From Eubacteriales bacterium (GTDB lineage: Bacteria; Bacillota; Clostridia; Oscillospirales; CAG-382), in contig JAZRPU010000073.1 in NCBI GenBank assembly GCA_045649365.1, positions 1 to 34,578 of the forward strand: 34,578 nucleotides of DNA, written 5' to 3'. The notes under the pieces were generated by a model, which did no database searches, was not told the origin of the DNA, and saw only the letters and a program-made list of their open reading frames with translations. Both the position numbers and the translations under genes were made by a program. Below, one piece after another: positions 799-32,327 of this stretch (the first letter of the stretch is position 1; the number at the start of each line of letters is the position of its first letter).

Positions 799-860
799 CC
801 TCGAATCCCTTCCCGATAAAAACGAAAACAGACACCTCGAGGTGTCTGTTTCCGTTTTTG
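799..860. repeat. 62-bp direct repeat copy 1 (CTCGAATCCC plus palindromic hairpin)
   Basis: 59/62 identical to 1906-1967; palindrome core AAACAGACACCTCGAGGTGTCTGTTT. Confidence 0.95.
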
Positions 861-1731: not shown

Positions 1732-1810
1732 TTCTTCGCCACAGATATGTTTCTTTTTTGTGAGAGTTCAAATCTAACTTGAGAAAAATATCTTTTTTGT
1801 AGCCCTTTGA

Positions 1811-1831
1811 TGGTGGAGACGGTAGGATTCG
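1811..1831 (-). repeat. Duplicated 3' end of tRNA-Ala (att-like)
   Basis: TGGTGGAGACGGTAGGATTCG matches 1966-1986 at 20/21, including the CCA end. Confidence 0.9.
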
Positions 1832-1905
1832 GTCTCATGGCTCGACGCCCTTCGGTCTTCCGCGGCTCTTGGCTTGCCACTGGCAAGTCAATTCACTACC
1901 GCTCA
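1832..1905. repeat. GC-rich REP-like palindromic insert
   Basis: Nested stems GCGG...CCGC around the hairpin CTTGCCA-C-TGGCAAG. Confidence 0.55.
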
Positions 1906-1967
1906 CCTCGAATCCCTTCCCGATAAAAACGGAAACAGACACCTCGAGGTGTCTGTTCTCGTTTTTG
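1906..1967. repeat. 62-bp direct repeat copy 2; its hairpin probably terminates the tRNA transcript
   Basis: 59/62 identical to 799-860; on the minus strand the hairpin follows the tRNA CCA directly and ends in a T-run. Confidence 0.9.
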
Positions 1968-2041
1968 GTGGAGACGGTGGGATTCGAACCCATGACCTAT
2001 GCGTTGCGAACGCATCGCTCTCCCAACTGAGCTACGCCCCC
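1966..2041 (-). tRNA. tRNA-Ala (anticodon CGC)
   Basis: 76-nt cloverleaf GGGGGCGTAGCTCAGTTGGGAGAGCG-ATGCG-TTCGCAA-CGCAT...GGGTTCGAATCCC...CGTCTCCACCA; G3:U70 alanine identity pair; encoded CCA. Confidence 0.97.
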
Positions 2042-2055
2042 GTTATTTTATTTTA

Positions 2056-2217
2056 AAATCTCAACGCTACATCGATGACCGAATACTATTTATTCATCGC
2101 TGAATATATACGACATTAGCCCTCCGCCTGCAATTTCGCGCCTCTACAAGAGCAAACCATCGAGTATTGTCTACATTTATTGGCTATATAAATACGATAT
2201 TGGCACTCCGCTAGGAG
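2056..2217 (-). ncRNA. Two tandem diverged copies of a candidate structured RNA motif in the tRNA spacer
   Basis: Copies 2130-2217 and 2056-2127 share GCGGA-NN-GCYAATRTCG...TCGATG...YGARATT and internal hairpins; a third copy lies at 29105-29210. Confidence 0.45.
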
Positions 2218-2291
2218 TGGAGCGAGTGACGGGAATCGAACCCGCGTAACCGGCTTGGGAAGCCGACACTCTACCATTGAGTTACACTCGC
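2218..2291 (-). tRNA. tRNA-Gly (anticodon CCC)
   Basis: 74-nt cloverleaf GCGAGTG...TCGGC-TTCCCAA-GCCGG...GGTTCGATTCC...CACTCGCTCCA; U73 discriminator. Confidence 0.97.
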
Positions 2292-2310: not shown

Positions 2311-2339
2311 ATTTTACCACATTACGCCTGATTTGTCAA
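2311..2339 (-). promoter_or_regulatory. Sigma-A promoter of the tRNA-Gly/tRNA-Ala operon
   Basis: TTGACA-17bp-TAAAAT with TG extension. Confidence 0.8.
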
Positions 2340-17427: not shown

Positions 17428-18369
17428 TTATTTCTTTTTCTTTACAACGATTACTACAACCACTGCAATTACAACAACCGCAGCAACGATTCCGATAATA
17501 AGTCCAACAGGAGTTGAGCTATCAGCATTATCATCAGCTTTGGATTCTTCTGCTTTAGATTCTGTTTTAGATTCTTCTGCTTTAGATTCTGTTTTAGATT
17601 CTTCAGCGGATTCTTCTGCAGATGCTTCTACAGATACTTCTGCAGATTCCTCTACAGTAGATTCGTCAACAATTTCTTCAGAAGGTTCATCGGGAACTTC
17701 GGGAGTAGGAATAGAATGTCCATTACCCCAGATTTCGATTTCACTGAAGGACAAGCAATATGCAGGTCCGAAAACCATCAATTGAATAGTTTTTGCGGTA
17801 ATAGGAGTATTGAATTTGAATGTAATATCATAATAACCGTTTTCAGAACCGTCTTCTGTGTGGTTCTTCTTGATTATTTCGTAATCTTTTGTTCTTTTGA
17901 GGTCAGCACCGTTAGGAGAGATGTTGATTATAGCTTTATCATAAGAGAAACCTCTGTTTCCTTTTCCGTTTTCGCCATTTTCCCAACCAAATTCAACGGA
18001 ATCCCAAACGTTACCAAAGGTAATTTCTGTAATGTCATCGTAAGTTGCGCCCAAATCAAAATTGATTGTGTTAACTACGCCTGAACCTGCAAAAACAACG
18101 CTTTCACCGGGGTTTTCGCTGCCTGCAATAACTTTGCCTTCTTCTGTAGTTGTTGTGTAGAAGGGGCTTACACCGTCTGTAAGGATAGTGCAAGAATCGT
18201 CACCGTAGTATTTTGAGCCATCGGTGGATGCAAGGAATGTGGTTGCACTGTCATATTCGTATGTAGCATTAGTTGCATAGTTTACCGCTTCGCCTTCAGC
18301 AGATACGGTTAATGCACACATCGAGCAAAGAACTAACAATGCGATTAAAATTGCTGAAATTTTTTTCAT
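17428..18369 (-). CDS. Membrane-anchored surface protein with a discoidin/F5-8 type C-like domain and acidic stalk
   Basis: Signal peptide; NYA...LTDG...FDLG...GNRGF...SEIEIWG; E/S-rich linker; TM helix plus KKKK. Confidence 0.7.
   Translation of the reverse strand: MKKISAILIALLVLCSMCALTVSAEGEAVNYATNATYEYDSATTFLASTDGSKYYGDDSCTILTDGVSPFYTTTTEEGKVIAGSENPGESVVFAGSGVVNTINFDLGATYDDITEITFGNVWDSVEFGWENGENGKGNRGFSYDKAIINISPNGADLKRTKDYEIIKKNHTEDGSENGYYDITFKFNTPITAKTIQLMVFGPAYCLSFSEIEIWGNGHSIPTPEVPDEPSEEIVDESTVEESAEVSVEASAEESAEESKTESKAEESKTESKAEESKADDNADSSTPVGLIIGIVAAVVVIAVVVVIVVKKKK
17543..17604. repeat. 27-bp coding tandem repeat (KTESKAEES), about 2.3 copies
   Basis: GATTCTTCTGCTTTAGATTCTGTTTTA twice plus a partial copy. 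Confidence 0.9.
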
Positions 18370-23450: not shown

Positions 23451-24119
23451 TTAAATGGTAAATTCAGATCCCGCATAATATCCTTCGCGAAAAGCTTCTT
23501 TAAATTCTTCACCATAGCCGAGAGAGAAAATAAGAACTACCATAAGCACCAAAAGGAGCCAGAAAGCGAAGTGAACAATAGAGATAATCATTCCCGCTGT
23601 AGCGAGTCCGTTTTTCTGGTTTACTTTGCGAGCTTTGGAACGACCTATGATAGAGAAAATAAGAGCCATAGTGTTAGTTATAGCAACCATTATTATTCCG
23701 CCGATACAGCAGCTGAAGAAGGAAACCAAGCTCAACACAAAACCCGCAATTCCCAAACCTTTTCCGGGTTTTTCAGGCTCTGACGGTTGTTGATAGGAAT
23801 ATCCGCCCTGTTGTCCGTATTGATTAGGTGTATATTGATTATATTGATTTTGCGTATATTGATTAGGCGTGTATTGATTATATTGATTTTGTGTATATTG
23901 ATTAGGTGTGTATTGATTATTCTGACCTGCTGAAACGTATGGATTGTTTTGCATGGGGGAAGATGGATTATTATATCCATTATAATTATTATCCAAAGGC
24001 TGATTGTTTTCTACTATAGGTTTGTCGTTCAATAAAGAAGCTTCGCTTGCATTTTGAGATGATTCATTGTTTTCAGGAGTTTCGTTAACACCATTGTTTT
24101 TTTCATTGTAATTATCCAT
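23451..24119 (-). CDS. DUF4190-like membrane protein with an N/Q/Y-rich low-complexity N-terminus
   Basis: GLGIAGFVLSLVS, FSIIG, GLATAGMIISIV; disordered repeat region. Confidence 0.75.
   Translation of the reverse strand: MDNYNEKNNGVNETPENNESSQNASEASLLNDKPIVENNQPLDNNYNGYNNPSSPMQNNPYVSAGQNNQYTPNQYTQNQYNQYTPNQYTQNQYNQYTPNQYGQQGGYSYQQPSEPEKPGKGLGIAGFVLSLVSFFSCCIGGIIMVAITNTMALIFSIIGRSKARKVNQKNGLATAGMIISIVHFAFWLLLVLMVVLIFSLGYGEEFKEAFREGYYAGSEFTI
23818..23920. repeat. 39-bp coding tandem repeat (QYTPNQYTQNQYN), about 2.6 copies
   Basis: Units start at 23818, 23857 and 23896. Confidence 0.9.
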
Positions 24120-28500: not shown

Positions 28501-29004
28501 TTACCAGCGGAAATTTTTTCCCGACATCACCCTTGAAAGTAAGCTTTTCAAAGCTCCCTCAACGTTAATAGGCAGAGCTGATGCATCAACTATGTATTGT
28601 CTGTCATCTGAAAGGAATAAATACACATCCCCGTCATTATATATAACCTTTTTTACGTTGGAATAGTCAATCCATTCTGTTTTTTCTTCCACGCCCTTTT
28701 TTGAAGCCACACGAAAGCCTTCTTCATCAAACATAAGCATAACCGATGCATTATATAGAGGGTCTTTTTTGCAAACCAAAAAAGGCAGAAGAATCATCGT
28801 TACAGAAAAAGCTACATTTATAAATGATAAAAAAGCACATTGACCGTATAATATTTTACCGTCGGAAAATGCAAGCATCATTACTATGGAAACAACGTTT
28901 GCTAAAACAAGAATAATCCATATCCACGTTTTATTCCATAAATCGTATTTCTTCAGTTTTATCATTTTTTCGCGAGTATAATCCAAGCTCACTACTATAG
29001 GCAT
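28501..29004 (-). CDS. YcxB-like membrane protein
   Basis: Two TM helices, then FDEEGF...IDYSNVKKV...YLFL...YIV. Confidence 0.7.
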   Translation of the reverse strand: MPIVVSLDYTREKMIKLKKYDLWNKTWIWIILVLANVVSIVMMLAFSDGKILYGQCAFLSFINVAFSVTMILLPFLVCKKDPLYNASVMLMFDEEGFRVASKKGVEEKTEWIDYSNVKKVIYNDGDVYLFLSDDRQYIVDASALPINVEGALKSLLSRVMSGKNFRW

Positions 29005-29026
29005 AATGTTTCCCCTTTATTCAATT

Positions 29027-29056
29027 AGTCCCGTATCGCTTTCGCAATACGGGACT
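29027..29056 (-). other. Strong GAAA-tetraloop hairpin lacking a minus-strand U-tract
   Basis: AGUCCCGUAUUGC-GAAA-GCGAUACGGGACU, 13 bp with one G:U pair. Confidence 0.7.
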
Positions 29057-29104
29057 TTGACTATTTATAAATTACCAATTCAACTTCTGTCAGACCGCGA
29101 CTTT

Positions 29105-29210
29105 GGACTAATTTCATACTACTAATGTGTCTGTTCTTCAGAAAAGTAAACCATCGAGTGATGTTTTAAACTTTATACTAAAGTAGACGTGACATTAGCT
29201 GTCCGCAAGG
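29105..29210 (-). ncRNA. Dispersed third copy of the candidate structured RNA motif
   Basis: Shares AAACCATCGAGT and GAYATTRGC-NN-TCCGC with 2130-2217 at nearly the same spacing (50 vs 49 nt). Confidence 0.45.
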
Positions 29211-29212
29211 AA

Positions 29213-30976
29213 TTAGTTGAATTTTCTTCTGGAAACGATAACTGCACCTGCAAGGGAGATAGCTGCTACAAGAGCAACCACAGCAAAACCTGCATCACCA
29301 GGGTTTTCGTTTTCATCGGGGTTAACTGCTCCACCGGAAGCGCCACCACCGATAACTTCGATTTCACCAAGAGTGAGAACGTATTCTTTGCTTGTGAGAG
29401 TAACTCTAACGTATTTAGCTGTTACATCTTTTGCAAGAGCGTATTCAATGTTAAATGTGTTAGCAACTTCTGTTTCAACTTCTGCGTATGTGTAATCATC
29501 AGCAGAAAGCTTTGTGAAAGAAGAACCGTTGTTGGACACTTCGATAATAACGTCTGCAAATTGACGGTTTCCATTGATAACAACGCCGTCGAATCTGATT
29601 TTGTTGATGTCTGTGCATTTTTTGCCGAGGTTAATTGTTATTGTGTTGGTAACTTTTGAGCCTGCAAAAGCAACTGTTTCAAAAGGAGTTTCAGATGTAG
29701 GAATAATTCCGTCTGTAAGCATTTCACCATTGTCGGTTTTGCTTGCATCAAGATATTTGAGAGCGCCTTCGATTGTGTATTTTTTGCCTGCTGCATAGTT
29801 TACTTCAACAGGGTCTTCAAGCATATCTTCTGTAACCTGAACAAGAACGATAACAAAAGCTGTGGGGTTTGTTACATCGTAAGTTGCGATTTGAACAGCG
29901 GATGTTTCAGGGTTAACAACGATTGCTCTTGTTGCGGAGCAAGCGGGGAAGATAGAAACAGCATAACCTGAAATACTGGTTTCGGGGTCAGAAGCATCTT
30001 GGATAAGTGTAACGCCATATCTTTGAGCAGCACTGTCATTACTGTCCCATGCTTTAACGTTAGTTCCGTCAGCATCAAGTCCGTCTTCAATATCGAGAAC
30101 TTTGCCTGTTGCTTTGTTGGAAATTTTGTATTTTCCGTCTTCTTTAAGTTCGAATTTCCAAACCAATTCGCTAAGGAGTTTTGTTTCTTCTGTAACAGGA
30201 ACTGCTGTTACGAAATCATTTTCTACTGCCCAAATTTTTCCTTCAGCAGAAGCAACTACGAAATATTTGCCATCGAAAGGATCAGCAGGAACTACGGGAG
30301 CTTCAGAGCCGTCTTCAGAAGCTTCTTCAGAAACTTCTTCGGAGGATTCTTCAGAAACTACGGGAGCTTCAGAAGATTCTTCTGTAACAATAGCTTCACC
30401 TCCAACAACCTGAATTTCATTCATAAGAAGAACCCATTTGTTGCTATATACGGTAAGTTTAACGTAACGAGCTTTGAGGTCGGAAGAGAAGTTGTAGATA
30501 TAGTTGTAATAACCCATATCGTCGCCTTCTGCCCAAACTTCTTTTTCCATTGTGTATTTAGCTACTTTGAAATCGGAACCGTTTGTGGATGTTTCAATAC
30601 GAGCTTTGTCACGGCAGAAGCCTCTGTTTCCCGCTTCAAAAGCATCGGAGTCACGAACGTTGATGATAACTTTGCTGATATCACTGTAGGATTTGCCAAG
30701 GTCAATAGTAAGAGTTACTACTTTAGCTGTACCTGTAATACCAACAGACTTTCCGCCTTCTTCAGCGTAGGGGAGAACACCGTCTGTGAGAATTTTTCCA
30801 TCGTCTGCTGTGCCGGCTAAATATGCATATTCTTCAGCATAAGCATAGGATTTACCATAAGCATAGTTTTTTTCGCCTTGTGCAAGGTTTGCATTTTCGC
30901 CTTCAGCCATAACTGTAAAGGAGAAAGTTGCCAAAACCATAACAAGAGTTAAAAGAATTGCGGTTATCTTTTTCAT
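29213..30976 (-). CDS. Surface protein: F5/8C-like, acidic linker, ricin-B-like, F5/8C-like, then a sorting-signal-like C-terminus
   Basis: Signal peptide; two NYA...LTDG...DLG/NLG...GNR...EIxV modules; YKISNKATGKVLDI...DGTNVKAW...AQRY; NPGDAG plus hydrophobic helix plus RRK. Confidence 0.75.
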   Translation of the reverse strand: MKKITAILLTLVMVLATFSFTVMAEGENANLAQGEKNYAYGKSYAYAEEYAYLAGTADDGKILTDGVLPYAEEGGKSVGITGTAKVVTLTIDLGKSYSDISKVIINVRDSDAFEAGNRGFCRDKARIETSTNGSDFKVAKYTMEKEVWAEGDDMGYYNYIYNFSSDLKARYVKLTVYSNKWVLLMNEIQVVGGEAIVTEESSEAPVVSEESSEEVSEEASEDGSEAPVVPADPFDGKYFVVASAEGKIWAVENDFVTAVPVTEETKLLSELVWKFELKEDGKYKISNKATGKVLDIEDGLDADGTNVKAWDSNDSAAQRYGVTLIQDASDPETSISGYAVSIFPACSATRAIVVNPETSAVQIATYDVTNPTAFVIVLVQVTEDMLEDPVEVNYAAGKKYTIEGALKYLDASKTDNGEMLTDGIIPTSETPFETVAFAGSKVTNTITINLGKKCTDINKIRFDGVVINGNRQFADVIIEVSNNGSSFTKLSADDYTYAEVETEVANTFNIEYALAKDVTAKYVRVTLTSKEYVLTLGEIEVIGGGASGGAVNPDENENPGDAGFAVVALVAAISLAGAVIVSRRKFN

Positions 30977-31472: not shown

Positions 31473-32327
31473 TTATTTGCTGTTCTTTTTCTTGAGAACA
31501 ACTACTACAGCTGCAATAACGATAACTGCTACAACGCCGATAACTACGAAAGGAACGATGCTTCCCTTGTCTTCGTCTTTATCATCTGCTTTGGATTCTT
31601 CAGCTTTAGATTCGGTTTTGGATTCTTCTGTAGATTCAGCAGCAGATTCAACAGTAGATTCTACTGTGGATTCAGCAGCAGATTCTTCAGATGTAGCGTC
31701 TGTAGATTCAGCTACGGATTCAGTAGCAGATTCTTCAGATGTAGCTTCGGAAGCAGCTTCGGAAGTTTCTTCAGAAACGTCTTCGATAACTTCTTTAACA
31801 GTGATTTCGAACTGTTGGTTGGGGTTTGTTGCAACGAAGTCGCAAAGCTGTGCATTGAAGTTAACAGCGTTAACGTCAATAACCTGATTTTCAGAGTGGT
31901 TAGGTCTTGCAAGATATTTCAAGCAATATTCATAGAAATAGAATGTCTGGCATTCGTGTCCTTCGCCTTCATCAACAACCATGATATTTGCGATATCGCC
32001 TTCTGCTTCTGTTTCAGCTGTAAGGCATCTTCCGTCGAGTTTACTTGTGATTTTGTATGCTTCGCCAACTTTTTCGAATTTCCAAAGTTGAGAGTCATCA
32101 CCAGTTGTTGTGTCAGCCCAAACATTGTAATTACCATCGTTTGTAAGAGCTTTACCTTCAAAAGGAAGAACGATTGTTGCATAGAATGCATCACCGAAAT
32201 CTTGAGGCGCCTTATTAAGAGGGGAATCATCAGCACTTGCTGTGATGGAAAGAGAAGCGATTACCGCTGTGAAAAGAACGAGGGAAAGCATTACGGATAA
32301 AAGCTTCTTGATAGATGTCTTTTTCAT
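31473..32327 (-). CDS. Membrane-anchored surface protein with a ricin-B-like lectin domain and acidic stalk
   Basis: Signal peptide; SQLWKF...YKITSKLDGRCL, CQTFYF, NQQF (QxW-like repeats); E/S/T/A linker; TM helix plus KKK. Confidence 0.75.
   Translation of the reverse strand: MKKTSIKKLLSVMLSLVLFTAVIASLSITASADDSPLNKAPQDFGDAFYATIVLPFEGKALTNDGNYNVWADTTTGDDSQLWKFEKVGEAYKITSKLDGRCLTAETEAEGDIANIMVVDEGEGHECQTFYFYEYCLKYLARPNHSENQVIDVNAVNFNAQLCDFVATNPNQQFEITVKEVIEDVSEETSEAASEATSEESATESVAESTDATSEESAAESTVESTVESAAESTEESKTESKAEESKADDKDEDKGSIVPFVVIGVVAVIVIAAVVVVLKKKNSK

What the first reader, a model, noticed from the sequence alone, without database searches (positions are those of the whole stretch)
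2056..2217. Candidate unrecognised structured RNA, tandem in the tRNA operon spacer and repeated 27 kb away
Seen: three diverged copies on the same (minus) strand, A 2130-2217, C 2056-2127 and B 29105-29210, share GCGGA-NN-GCYAAURUCR, then UCGAUG about 50 nt later, then YGARAUU. By-eye folding gives the same closing stem with a purine-purine mismatch and changed pairs: CAAUAUCG/CGAAAUUG (A), CUAAUGUCA/UGAAAUUAG (B), AAUGUCG/UGAGAUU (C). The first hairpin is kept despite different sequence (UAUUUAU/AUAAAUG; ACUUUA/UAAAGU; UAUUCA-GCGA-UGAAUA, a GNRA loop). A and B also share ACUCGAUGGUUU exactly. Copy A starts right after the tRNA-Gly CCA and copy B right after a stop codon, each downstream of a good sigma-A promoter with no obvious intervening terminator. 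Inference: a multi-way-junction ncRNA, processing element or small dispersed repeat that I cannot assign to a known family.
Basis: partly seen in the sequence, partly recalled or inferred. Interest (0 to 1): 0.75.

Follow-up and report, generated by a model that had tools for sequence, protein, structure and literature searches.

The report
Genus-specific gene-end interspersed tandem repeat
The three look-alike stretches are copies of a small repeated DNA element, found only in this one gut-bacterial genus, that sits directly after the ends of genes and multiplies into tandem arrays; it resembles the known BOX repeats of pneumococcus more than a folded RNA gene.

Summary
The motif GCGGANNGCYAATRTC occurs only at copies A, B and C in the 1.9-Mb genome, and 0 of 100 shuffles gave any match. 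The copies belong to a family of about 67-nt units: a 4-bp hairpin, then GGCUAAUGUCGU, a diverged interior and a CUCGAUGG box. A sequence model finds the family in 6 of 6 genomes of the genus and in 0 of 115 genomes of 14 sister genera. Rfam has no match.

In relatives the units form tandem arrays with periods of 20 to 109 nt. The first unit starts 0-1 nt after the tRNA-Gly CCA, or 0-34 nt before the end of an ORF's stop codon, at 8 of 8 ORF sites. Orthologous sites are filled, empty or eroded in sister species.

Only the 4-bp hairpin covaries.

Verdict: a new family of small interspersed, tandemly amplifying intergenic repeats, closest in behaviour to pneumococcal BOX elements. It is not a multi-junction ncRNA. 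Why it abuts gene ends is unexplained.

The parts
2311..2339 (-). promoter-like site of the tRNA-Gly/tRNA-Ala unit (TTGACA, 17 nt, TG-TAAAAT)
   Evidence: 11 of 12 matches with TG
2218..2291 (-). tRNA-Gly (anticodon ccc) with encoded CCA
2151..2217 (-). copy A, core unit: hairpin CUCC(2217-2214)/UAGC/GGAG(2209-2206), 5' box to about 2193, 3' box ACUCGAUGGUUUGCU at 2165-2151
   Evidence: (R1 hit 2156-2216, E 3.8e-11)
   Evidence: stem not better than chance
2064..2133 (-). copy C, core unit with a degenerate hairpin (UUGC/AGGC/GGAG, 3 of 4 pairs) and 3' box UCAUCGAUGUAGCG at 2078-2065
   Evidence: (R1 hit 2070-2132, E 1.5e-9)
1966..2041 (-). tRNA-Ala (anticodon cgc), the 3' limit of the spacer
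1933..1958 (-). intrinsic-terminator-like hairpin ending the tRNA unit
29213..30976 (-). 587-aa ORF (F5/8 type C and ricin-type lectin domains) whose TAA (29215-29213) abuts copy B
29145..29212 (-). copy B, core unit: hairpin UUCC(29212-29209)/UUGC/GGAC(29204-29201, 3 of 4 pairs), 5' box, 3' box ACUCGAUGGUUUACU at 29159-29145
   Evidence: (R1 hit 29150-29212, E 4.6e-12)
29027..29056 (-). GC-rich hairpin without a U tail between B and the next ORF; a similar hairpin follows the array in metagenome locus L145
   Evidence: unique in this genome
31017..31045 (-). promoter-like site upstream of the 587-aa ORF (12 of 12)

Best explanation
A, B and C are copies of a genus-restricted, non-coding, small interspersed repeat. 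The unit is about 67 nt. It has a 4-bp G+C hairpin with a 3-4-nt loop (consensus GUCC-UNGC-GGAC), a strongly conserved single-stranded box (GGCUAAUGUCGU), a diverged but homologous interior, and a 3' box (CUCGAUGG, often followed by UUUGCU). Shown: the unit lies on the transcribed strand directly behind the 3' end of a gene product. It amplifies and shrinks as head-to-tail arrays, including sub-repeats made of the hairpin box alone. It is present, absent or eroded at orthologous sites in sister species. Where it overlaps an ORF end, it supplies the stop codon. Inferred: it behaves like pneumococcal BOX or enterobacterial BIME mosaic repeats. That is, it is a non-autonomous element that reaches new gene-end sites by an unidentified insertion or recombination step, and then changes copy number by slipped-strand or unequal recombination. 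The hairpin plus box would be the part a protein recognises, as RNA or as single-stranded DNA, and this would keep it conserved while the rest drifts. In the window it is carried passively in the tRNA-Gly/tRNA-Ala precursor and in the 3' UTR of a surface-protein mRNA. Any effect on those RNAs is probably small.
For: Real and non-random: 3 motif matches in the window against 0 in 100 shuffles, and none elsewhere in the genome. Family and range: model R1 hits 6 of 6 genomes of the genus, with 3-9 unit hits each, and 0 of 115 genomes of 14 other genera of the family at E<=0.001. An exact 20-base box pattern found only 2 loci in the metagenome collection. Tandem amplification: identical 87-nt units (7 5' boxes seen, around a 100-base run of N) in G003:C3; 63-, 37-, 23- and 14-nt periods in G001:C51; 20- and 109-nt periods in G004:C7; four 108-nt units in G005:C10. 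Gene-end position: the hairpin starts 0-1 nt after the CCA in 5 of 5 tRNA-Gly loci that carry the element. At 8 of 8 independent ORF sites the gap from the stop codon's end to the hairpin start is 0, -17, -18, -7, -1, -34, 0 and -33 nt. The ORFs are ordinary genes: ABC transporter, PEPCK, SpoIIIAH, SHMT, radical SAM, RF-1, aminotransferase and an F5/8-type-C protein. Gain and loss: PEPCK ends ...ARLNK* in G003 and G000 but ...ARVLADG* in G001, where the array sits. The RF-1/lipoprotein spacer is 25-30 nt and empty in G000 and G003, but holds one 68-nt unit in G002. G005 keeps only 7 nt where G002 has the 71-nt unit after tRNA-Gly, and G001 has a 41-nt spacer with no unit. Hairpin selected: 76 of 80 cells pair, 3 of 4 pairs carry changes on both sides (GUCC/GGAC, CUCC/GGAG, GUCU/AGAC, CGCC/GGCG), and 0-1 of 500 shuffles reach the observed values. 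No larger fold. Precedent, from passages read in PMC3049150: BOX is boxA-(boxB)n-boxC with variable boxB number; 58 CDSs overlap BOX, 36 of them at the extreme 3' end with BOX encoding the stop codon.
Against: No mobilising enzyme or autonomous parent was found. Y1 transposase genes occur in 4 of 6 genomes, but the only flanks read in full (G005:C15) show no resemblance to the boxes, and a motif scan of all 8 loci gave one lone 9-base match. No target-site duplication or target consensus is visible at 14 junctions. Copy number is low, at 1 to about 8 loci per genome, unlike typical REP or BOX families. A neutral repeat does not explain three things: every first unit starts intact at the hairpin exactly at the gene end; 9 of 9 gene-abutting locus groups are co-oriented with the gene; and the 4-bp hairpin is kept by compensatory change. 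These point to a targeted insertion mechanism or a function that I have not identified. No usable transcript data exist. The assemblies are fragmented MAGs in which repeats are often collapsed.
Confidence: 0.7

Rival explanations
1. A functional cis-acting RNA module that marks the 3' boundary of a gene product. In the transcript, the hairpin plus the GGCUAAUGUCGU box would be bound or cut by a genus-specific protein such as an endoribonuclease or RNA-binding protein. This would define or protect the 3' end of the upstream tRNA or mRNA, or act on the terminating ribosome.
For: It is always placed on the sense strand directly after the CCA or stop codon: 5 of 5 tRNA loci and 8 of 8 ORF sites. 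It lies upstream of the terminator, so it must be transcribed with the gene. The hairpin shows compensatory changes. The box is nearly invariant between loci and species while the interior drifts.
Against: It is dispensable at orthologous sites: absent after tRNA-Gly in G001, eroded in G005, and absent from the PEPCK and RF-1 ends of sister species. Copy number at one site ranges from 1 to 8 or more. One copy (G002:C205) is antisense to both neighbouring genes. A 4-bp stem is too weak to block exonucleases on its own (inference). No RNA evidence was obtainable.
Confidence: 0.17
2. One reading: a discrete structured ncRNA with a closing stem carrying a purine-purine mismatch and two or more internal hairpins (a multi-way junction).
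For: The stems can be drawn in A, B and C. A similar 5'-box/distal pairing can be drawn for the G004 109-nt unit and G002:C205 by eye. The fold of B is somewhat better than shuffles (z -2.33).
Against: RNAalifold on 14 units gives 2 invariant pairs and no covariation. Duplex energy of the 5' box with the 75 nt downstream gives mean z -0.27 and Fisher p 0.26 over 19 unit types. Core-interior MFE gives mean z -0.07 and p 0.51 over 17. A and C fold no better than shuffles. Many array units of 59-63 nt have no room for the distal partner. No Rfam family matches.
Confidence: 0.04
3. A processed repeat RNA of a defence or addiction system: an antitoxin array of a type III toxin-antitoxin pair, or a degenerate CRISPR-like array.
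For: It forms tandem arrays of short units with a small hairpin, sometimes followed by a hairpin and an ORF of about 170 aa (B is followed by a 167-aa ORF).
Against: The 'spacers' are identical or homologous between units and between loci. Downstream genes differ at every locus: glycyl-tRNA synthetase-like, lipoprotein, tRNA-Ala. The 167-aa ORF has no Pfam or PADLOC match and has hydrophobic stretches. No CRISPR-like array was found in this assembly by a k-mer scan.
Confidence: 0.02
4. A and B are the diverged attachment-site repeats (attL/attR) of a 27-kb island integrated at tRNA-Gly.
For: They are direct repeats on one strand, one beside a tRNA gene, 27 kb apart. The DNA just downstream of B has no match in the five other genomes of the genus.
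Against: The 27 kb lies 5' of the tRNA-Gly gene, not behind its 3' end. B carries no copy of the tRNA 3' end. Identity is only 68%. The same unit sits at many unrelated loci and in arrays in relatives.
Confidence: 0.02

Closest known systems
BOX elements of Streptococcus pneumoniae (boxA-(boxB)n-boxC composite interspersed repeats)
   Same: Both are small, non-coding, modular repeats in a low-G+C Firmicute with an internal module in variable tandem number. Both are dispersed in intergenic DNA, often overlap the extreme 3' end of ordinary genes and supply the stop codon, and vary between related genomes. The mobilising agent is unknown or only hypothesised in both (passages of PMC3049150 read; here).
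   Different: No sequence relation was tested, because no BOX model was on hand. Here there are no complementary terminal modules that fold back on each other. Copy number is far lower (1 to about 8 loci against more than 100; the BOX figure is recalled). Range is a single genus of uncultured gut Clostridia. There is a much stricter start exactly at the gene end.
REP/BIME elements and their RAYT transposases (Enterobacteria, Pseudomonas)
   Same: Both are short hairpin-bearing extragenic repeats lying after stop codons inside transcription units, often clustered in mosaics with other repeat types. The hairpin is kept by compensatory change.
   Different: The REP hairpin is a 20-40-nt palindrome, against only 4 bp here. 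REPs alternate in orientation within BIMEs, whereas these units are strictly head-to-tail. In the one Y1 transposase locus read in full, the flanks carry no copy of the boxes. REP properties are recalled, apart from the passage of PMC3184786 read.
MIRU-type intergenic minisatellites of Mycobacterium tuberculosis
   Same: Both are 40-100-bp units in head-to-tail arrays in spacers within transcription units, with unit ends overlapping the stop codon of the upstream gene and copy number variable between strains (recalled; Supply et al. was seen only as a reference-list entry).
   Different: MIRUs are described as containing small ORFs that couple neighbouring genes (recalled). Here stop codons occur in all three frames of the consensus 5' box, and no ORF runs through the units.
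tRNA-operon spacer or trailer RNAs with regulatory roles (for example the 3' external transcribed spacer of an E. coli tRNA operon acting as an sRNA sponge)
   Same: Copies A and C lie between two co-transcribed tRNAs, so they would be released by normal tRNA processing as a free fragment of about 176 nt (2042-2217).
   Different: No evidence of stability or of a target exists. The spacer is not conserved: it is absent in G001 and eroded in G005. The comparison is from recall; no paper was read.

Membership tests
Any Rfam 15 family | Match to a covariance model at or near its gathering score | tested here: not met
   Window at gathering: only the two tRNAs. A/C and B regions at E<=10: only chance-level hits far below gathering. 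13 related loci at gathering: only tRNAs.
Pneumococcal BOX elements | Composite of terminal modules around a tandemly repeated internal module of variable number | tested here: met
   The hairpin-box sub-repeats and whole units vary from 1 to at least 7 copies per locus.
Pneumococcal BOX elements | Terminal modules (boxA, boxC) complementary to each other, folding into one long stem-loop | tested here: not met
   The 5' box against the 75 nt downstream is no better than shuffles (mean z -0.27, p 0.26, 19 unit types).
Pneumococcal BOX elements | Sequence homology to boxA, boxB or boxC | not testable with these tools
REP elements mobilised by RAYT | Imperfect palindrome of 20-40 nt, with REP copies flanking a Y1 (RAYT) transposase gene | tested here: not met
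   The palindrome is only 4 bp. PF01797 genes occur in 4 of 6 genomes. The flanks of G005:C15, the only locus read in full, carry neither box, and a motif scan of 8 loci gave one isolated 9-base match.
IS200/IS605-derived hairpin elements | Insertion 3' of a fixed 4-5-nt target, with subterminal hairpins at both ends | tested here: not met
   The 14 upstream junctions read share no tetra- or pentanucleotide, and there is no hairpin at the 3' box.
CRISPR array | Conserved repeats separated by unique spacers | tested here: not met
   The interiors are identical within arrays (G003, G005:C10) and homologous between loci.
Type III toxin-antitoxin (ToxIN-like) | Repeat array followed by a terminator and an endoribonuclease toxin gene | tested here: not met
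   Downstream genes differ at each locus. The 167-aa ORF after B has no Pfam or PADLOC match.
Conserved structured ncRNA (generic) | Consensus secondary structure supported by covariation over most of its length | tested here: not met
   Only the 4-bp 5' hairpin covaries. RNAalifold found nothing else.

The most novel reading that the evidence does not exclude
The element is a gene-end-seeking mobile module. Every dispersed copy begins at exactly the nucleotide that follows the tRNA-Gly CCA in the ancestral locus, and it lands at or just inside stop codons, in the sense orientation. This would fit one of two readings. In the first, an RNA-mediated, SINE-like copy of a processed tRNA trailer is pasted at the 3' boundaries of genes. 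In the second, a hairpin-plus-box signal is read by an unknown genus-specific nuclease or recombinase that cuts transcripts, or inserts DNA, precisely where a gene product ends. Reverse-transcriptase genes exist in 4 of 6 genomes, but nothing links them to the element.
Probability: 0.1. Interest if true: 0.75.

Novelty: new member of a known kind. Interest (0 to 1): 0.3.

Why it matters
As it stands, this adds one more family to the known class of small interspersed or tandem intergenic repeats, here in an uncultured animal-gut Clostridia genus. Its practical value is modest. It explains odd C-terminal extensions and variable tRNA spacers in these MAGs. It warns annotators against calling the copies an ncRNA gene. 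It offers variable-number loci for strain typing. The one feature worth a specialist's attention is the very strict geometry: an intact 5' hairpin starting 0-1 nt after a CCA, or at or inside the stop codon, at every gene-abutting site. Neutral insertion followed by selection does not obviously produce this. It could expose either a targeting mechanism for gene 3' boundaries or a 3'-end RNA signal.

Tried and rejected
I read only the titles. This is compatible with chance for 14 specified bases in 596 Gb and tells nothing about range.

2. The three out-of-genus exact matches (G022, G033, G044) lie in what reads as coding DNA and carry no 3' box. I treat them as chance; the reversed-pattern control gave 2 hits in the same 61 genomes.

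3. Sequencing runs: the best holder had 0.33 of the sampled words. The two RNA libraries covered only the tRNA parts. One DNA contig (X2) covers 2030-2186. One contig in an RNA library (X11) joins tRNA-Gly to tRNA-Ala with 114 other letters instead of 163. Nothing can be said about transcription, ends or abundance of the element.

4. Pairing of the 5' box with the 3' box (UGUCG with CGAUG) was considered by eye. Variation at the G/A/U/C position of the box is not matched on the other side (alignment), so I dropped it.

5. Y1 transposase / RAYT link: no shared sequence in the flanks.

6. Reverse transcriptase presence does not track copy number.

7. CRISPR-like arrays in the genome: none by k-mer scan.

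8. The downstream flank of B (28700-29100) has no match in the five other genomes, so no empty-site comparison was possible for B.

9. Resemblance of GGCGGACGG...UAAUGUC to a 16S rRNA segment, and of the reverse complement to a plasmid nick site, are recalled similarities only. They were not tested and are not relied on.

Full report
**Observation.** On the minus strand the window reads as follows. A promoter-like site lies at 2339-2311. It is followed by tRNA-Gly(ccc) at 2291-2218, copy A, copy C, tRNA-Ala(cgc) at 2041-1966, and a terminator-like hairpin at 1958-1933. Copy B follows the TAA of a 587-aa ORF with F5/8-type-C and ricin-type lectin domains. That ORF has a 12-of-12 promoter-like site at 31045-31017. 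The motif GCGGANNGCYAATRTC occurs 3 times in the window, against 0 in each of 100 dinucleotide shuffles. It occurs nowhere else in the 1.9-Mb, 316-contig, 72%-complete assembly. ACTCGATGGTTT is shared exactly by A and B only. Core identities are 59-68%.

**No known RNA family.** Rfam 15 gives only the two tRNAs at gathering thresholds. At E<=10 on the two regions it gives nothing but chance-level hits. Thirteen related loci give only tRNAs.

**What the relatives show.** In 61 related genomes the exact motif is found in 5 of 6 genomes of the window's own genus. Outside the genus it appears only as single hits in three genomes. Those three lie in what reads as coding DNA with no 3' box, and the reversed control pattern gave 2 hits. 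In the genus the motif is in head-to-tail arrays:
- 87-nt units in G003:C3, identical except in the hairpin's 5' strand and one later base. Seven 5' boxes were seen around a 100-base run of N.
- 63-, 37-, 23- and 14-nt periods in G001:C51.
- 20- and 109-nt periods in G004:C7.

I aligned 14 distinct units. From that alignment I built a sequence-only model, R1. R1 finds 3-9 unit hits in each of the 6 genomes of the genus. It finds none in 115 genomes of 14 other genera of the family at E<=0.001. A 20-base exact box pattern found only two loci in the metagenome collection.

**Anatomy.** The core is 59-68 nt, mostly 63-66. It starts with a 4-bp hairpin with a 3- or 4-nt loop. Next comes GGCUAAUGUCGU, then an interior whose first half is still recognisably homologous (GU-R-UUUAC-UU...). 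It ends in CUCGAUGG, followed in the window's subfamily by UUU-R-CU. The hairpin box alone can be repeated every 20 nt or, with a second partial box, every 37 nt. Other repeat modules often lie beside it: a GGAATTC heptamer run, purine-rich palindromes and terminator-like hairpins. The intergenic regions of this genus are therefore mosaics.

**Position.** In all 5 tRNA-Gly loci that carry the element, the hairpin starts 0-1 nt after the CCA. These loci are G000, G002:C251, G002:C192, G003:C63 and G004:C7. At 8 independent ORF sites the distance from the end of the stop codon to the hairpin start is 0, -17, -18, -7, -1, -34, 0 and -33 nt. The element therefore abuts the stop codon or contains it. 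The ORFs are ordinary genes. The consensus box has stops in all three frames: UAG in the loop, UAA in GGCUAAU, and UAG in GUCGUAG (read). All 9 gene-abutting locus groups are co-oriented with the gene.

Three groups differ:
- Two arrays are free-standing after a terminator-like hairpin (G005:C10, and G005:C4 = G002:C136).
- One copy (G002:C205) is antisense to both neighbours, a ParA-like gene and a convergently ending gene.

**Turnover.**
- PEPCK ends ...ARLNK* in G003 and G000, but ...ARVLADG* in G001, where the array replaces the last codons and the native 3' flank.
- The RF-1/lipoprotein spacer is 25-30 nt in G000 and G003. In G002 it holds one 68-nt unit directly after the TGA.
- After tRNA-Gly, G002:C251 has a 71-nt unit where its close relative G005 has only 7 nt resembling the unit's start.
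- G001 has a 41-nt spacer with no unit.
- Other genera have terminators directly after tRNA-Gly.

The element is thus dispensable and is gained, lost and resized on the time-scale of speciation. No target consensus or target duplication is visible at the junctions I read.

**Structure tests.**
- RNAalifold on the 14 units predicts only two invariant pairs.
Over 19 unit types the mean z is -0.27 and Fisher p is 0.26.
- Single folds give A z -0.28, C +0.18 and B -2.33.

The 5' hairpin is different. There are four fully paired stem types: GUCC/GGAC, CUCC/GGAG at four loci, GUCU/AGAC and CGCC/GGCG. Seven types have one mismatch. I then counted pairs on the 20 distinct rows that have 4-nt loops. 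I left out the 8 rows of alignment A3 that have 3-nt loops, because they do not align in register. In those 20 rows, 76 of 80 cells pair. Three of 4 pairs have changes on both sides. 0-1 of 500 shuffles reach the observed measures, and slid controls give 30-68% pairing. The rows are related copies, so this is support rather than proof. Wobble against A-C mismatches does not tell RNA from DNA.

**Who moves it.** Y1 transposase genes occur in 4 of 6 genomes. The flanks I read in full (G005:C15) carry no box, and a motif scan of all 8 loci gave one isolated 9-base match. Reverse-transcriptase genes occur in the same 4 of 6 genomes, with no link to the element. No autonomous parent was seen. MAGs often lack such repeats, so this absence is weak.

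**Comparison with known systems.** The closest analogue I could document is the pneumococcal BOX element. In passages of PMC3049150, BOX is a composite of boxA and boxC around a variable tandem array of boxB. The number of boxB modules varies between strains. 58 CDSs overlap BOX, 36 of them at the extreme 3' end with BOX encoding the stop codon. The present family shares the modular tandem behaviour and the gene-end overlap. It lacks complementary terminal modules, has far fewer loci, and starts much more strictly at the gene end. REP/BIME, MIRU and IS200/IS605-derived elements each fail a defining feature (see the membership table). CRISPR and type III antitoxin arrays are excluded by the identical 'spacers' and by the lack of a linked nuclease.

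**Verdict.** The finding is real. It is best read as a new, genus-restricted family of small interspersed, tandemly amplifying gene-end repeats, not as a multi-way-junction ncRNA. In the window, A and C are two old, diverged units of the ancestral tRNA-Gly trailer array. B is a single unit behind a surface-protein gene. Three things remain unexplained: the exact gene-end start, the sense orientation, and the selected 4-bp hairpin with its invariant box. These keep alive, at roughly 10-25% together, the readings that it is a 3'-boundary RNA signal or a gene-end-targeting mobile module.

Noticed in passing
window 1810-1916 (minus strand); also L181 (G003:C63) and L004 (G004:C7): A segment of about 105 nt after the tRNA-Ala terminator ends in a copy of the tRNA-Ala T-arm/acceptor 3' end plus CCA (1811-1839 against 1966-1994, 86%). 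It can close with GGAUUCG/CGAAUCC. It is conserved in three species. ARAGORN and Rfam do not call it; there is only a weak tmRNA_permuted hit, E 2.4. It may be an old integration (att) scar or a tRNA-like RNA.
   Followed up: partly
window 799-860 and 1906-1967: A 62-nt direct repeat (95% identical) consists of the tRNA-Ala terminator plus the first bases of the tRNA-like segment. It brackets a promoter-like site (1731-1703) and a GH25 lysozyme gene (900-1682). This looks like a small cassette or prophage remnant inserted at the tRNA-Ala locus.
   Followed up: partly
L163 1626-1713 (G002:C205) and many places in G000, G004, G005: A second, far more abundant repeat family is built around runs of the heptamer GGAATTC. 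It gives 19 to 63 BLAST hits per genome in three genomes of the genus, and 13 near-exact 16-mers in the window's genome. It often lies beside the element studied here (glyA, tRNA-Gly and parA loci).
   Followed up: no
L004 1820-2000 (G004:C7), L144 540-660, L177 (G005:C4) upstream of the array: Purine-rich palindromic repeats (runs of AGAAGAAAAGAA and their complement, partly in tandem) form another recurring intergenic module next to the arrays.
   Followed up: no
window 17519-17709, 30288-30370, 31570-31802: 12-nt-periodic repeats are shared between three coding regions, among them the 587-aa ORF upstream of copy B. They are probably low-complexity Ser/Asp/Glu-type linkers of surface proteins (families D1-D3).
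   Followed up: no
window 23818-23934: A 15/9-nt periodic repeat of TATTGATTA-like units, 7 copies (family D4). It was not examined.
   Followed up: no
window 28700-29100: The DNA downstream of copy B, including the 167-aa ORF with no family match, has no match in the five other genomes of the genus. This part of the window may be strain- or species-specific.
   Followed up: partly
L007 1806-1905 (G003:C3): A run of 100 N interrupts the 87-nt array. It is either a scaffold gap in a collapsed repeat or a withheld stretch, so the true copy number there is unknown.
   Followed up: no
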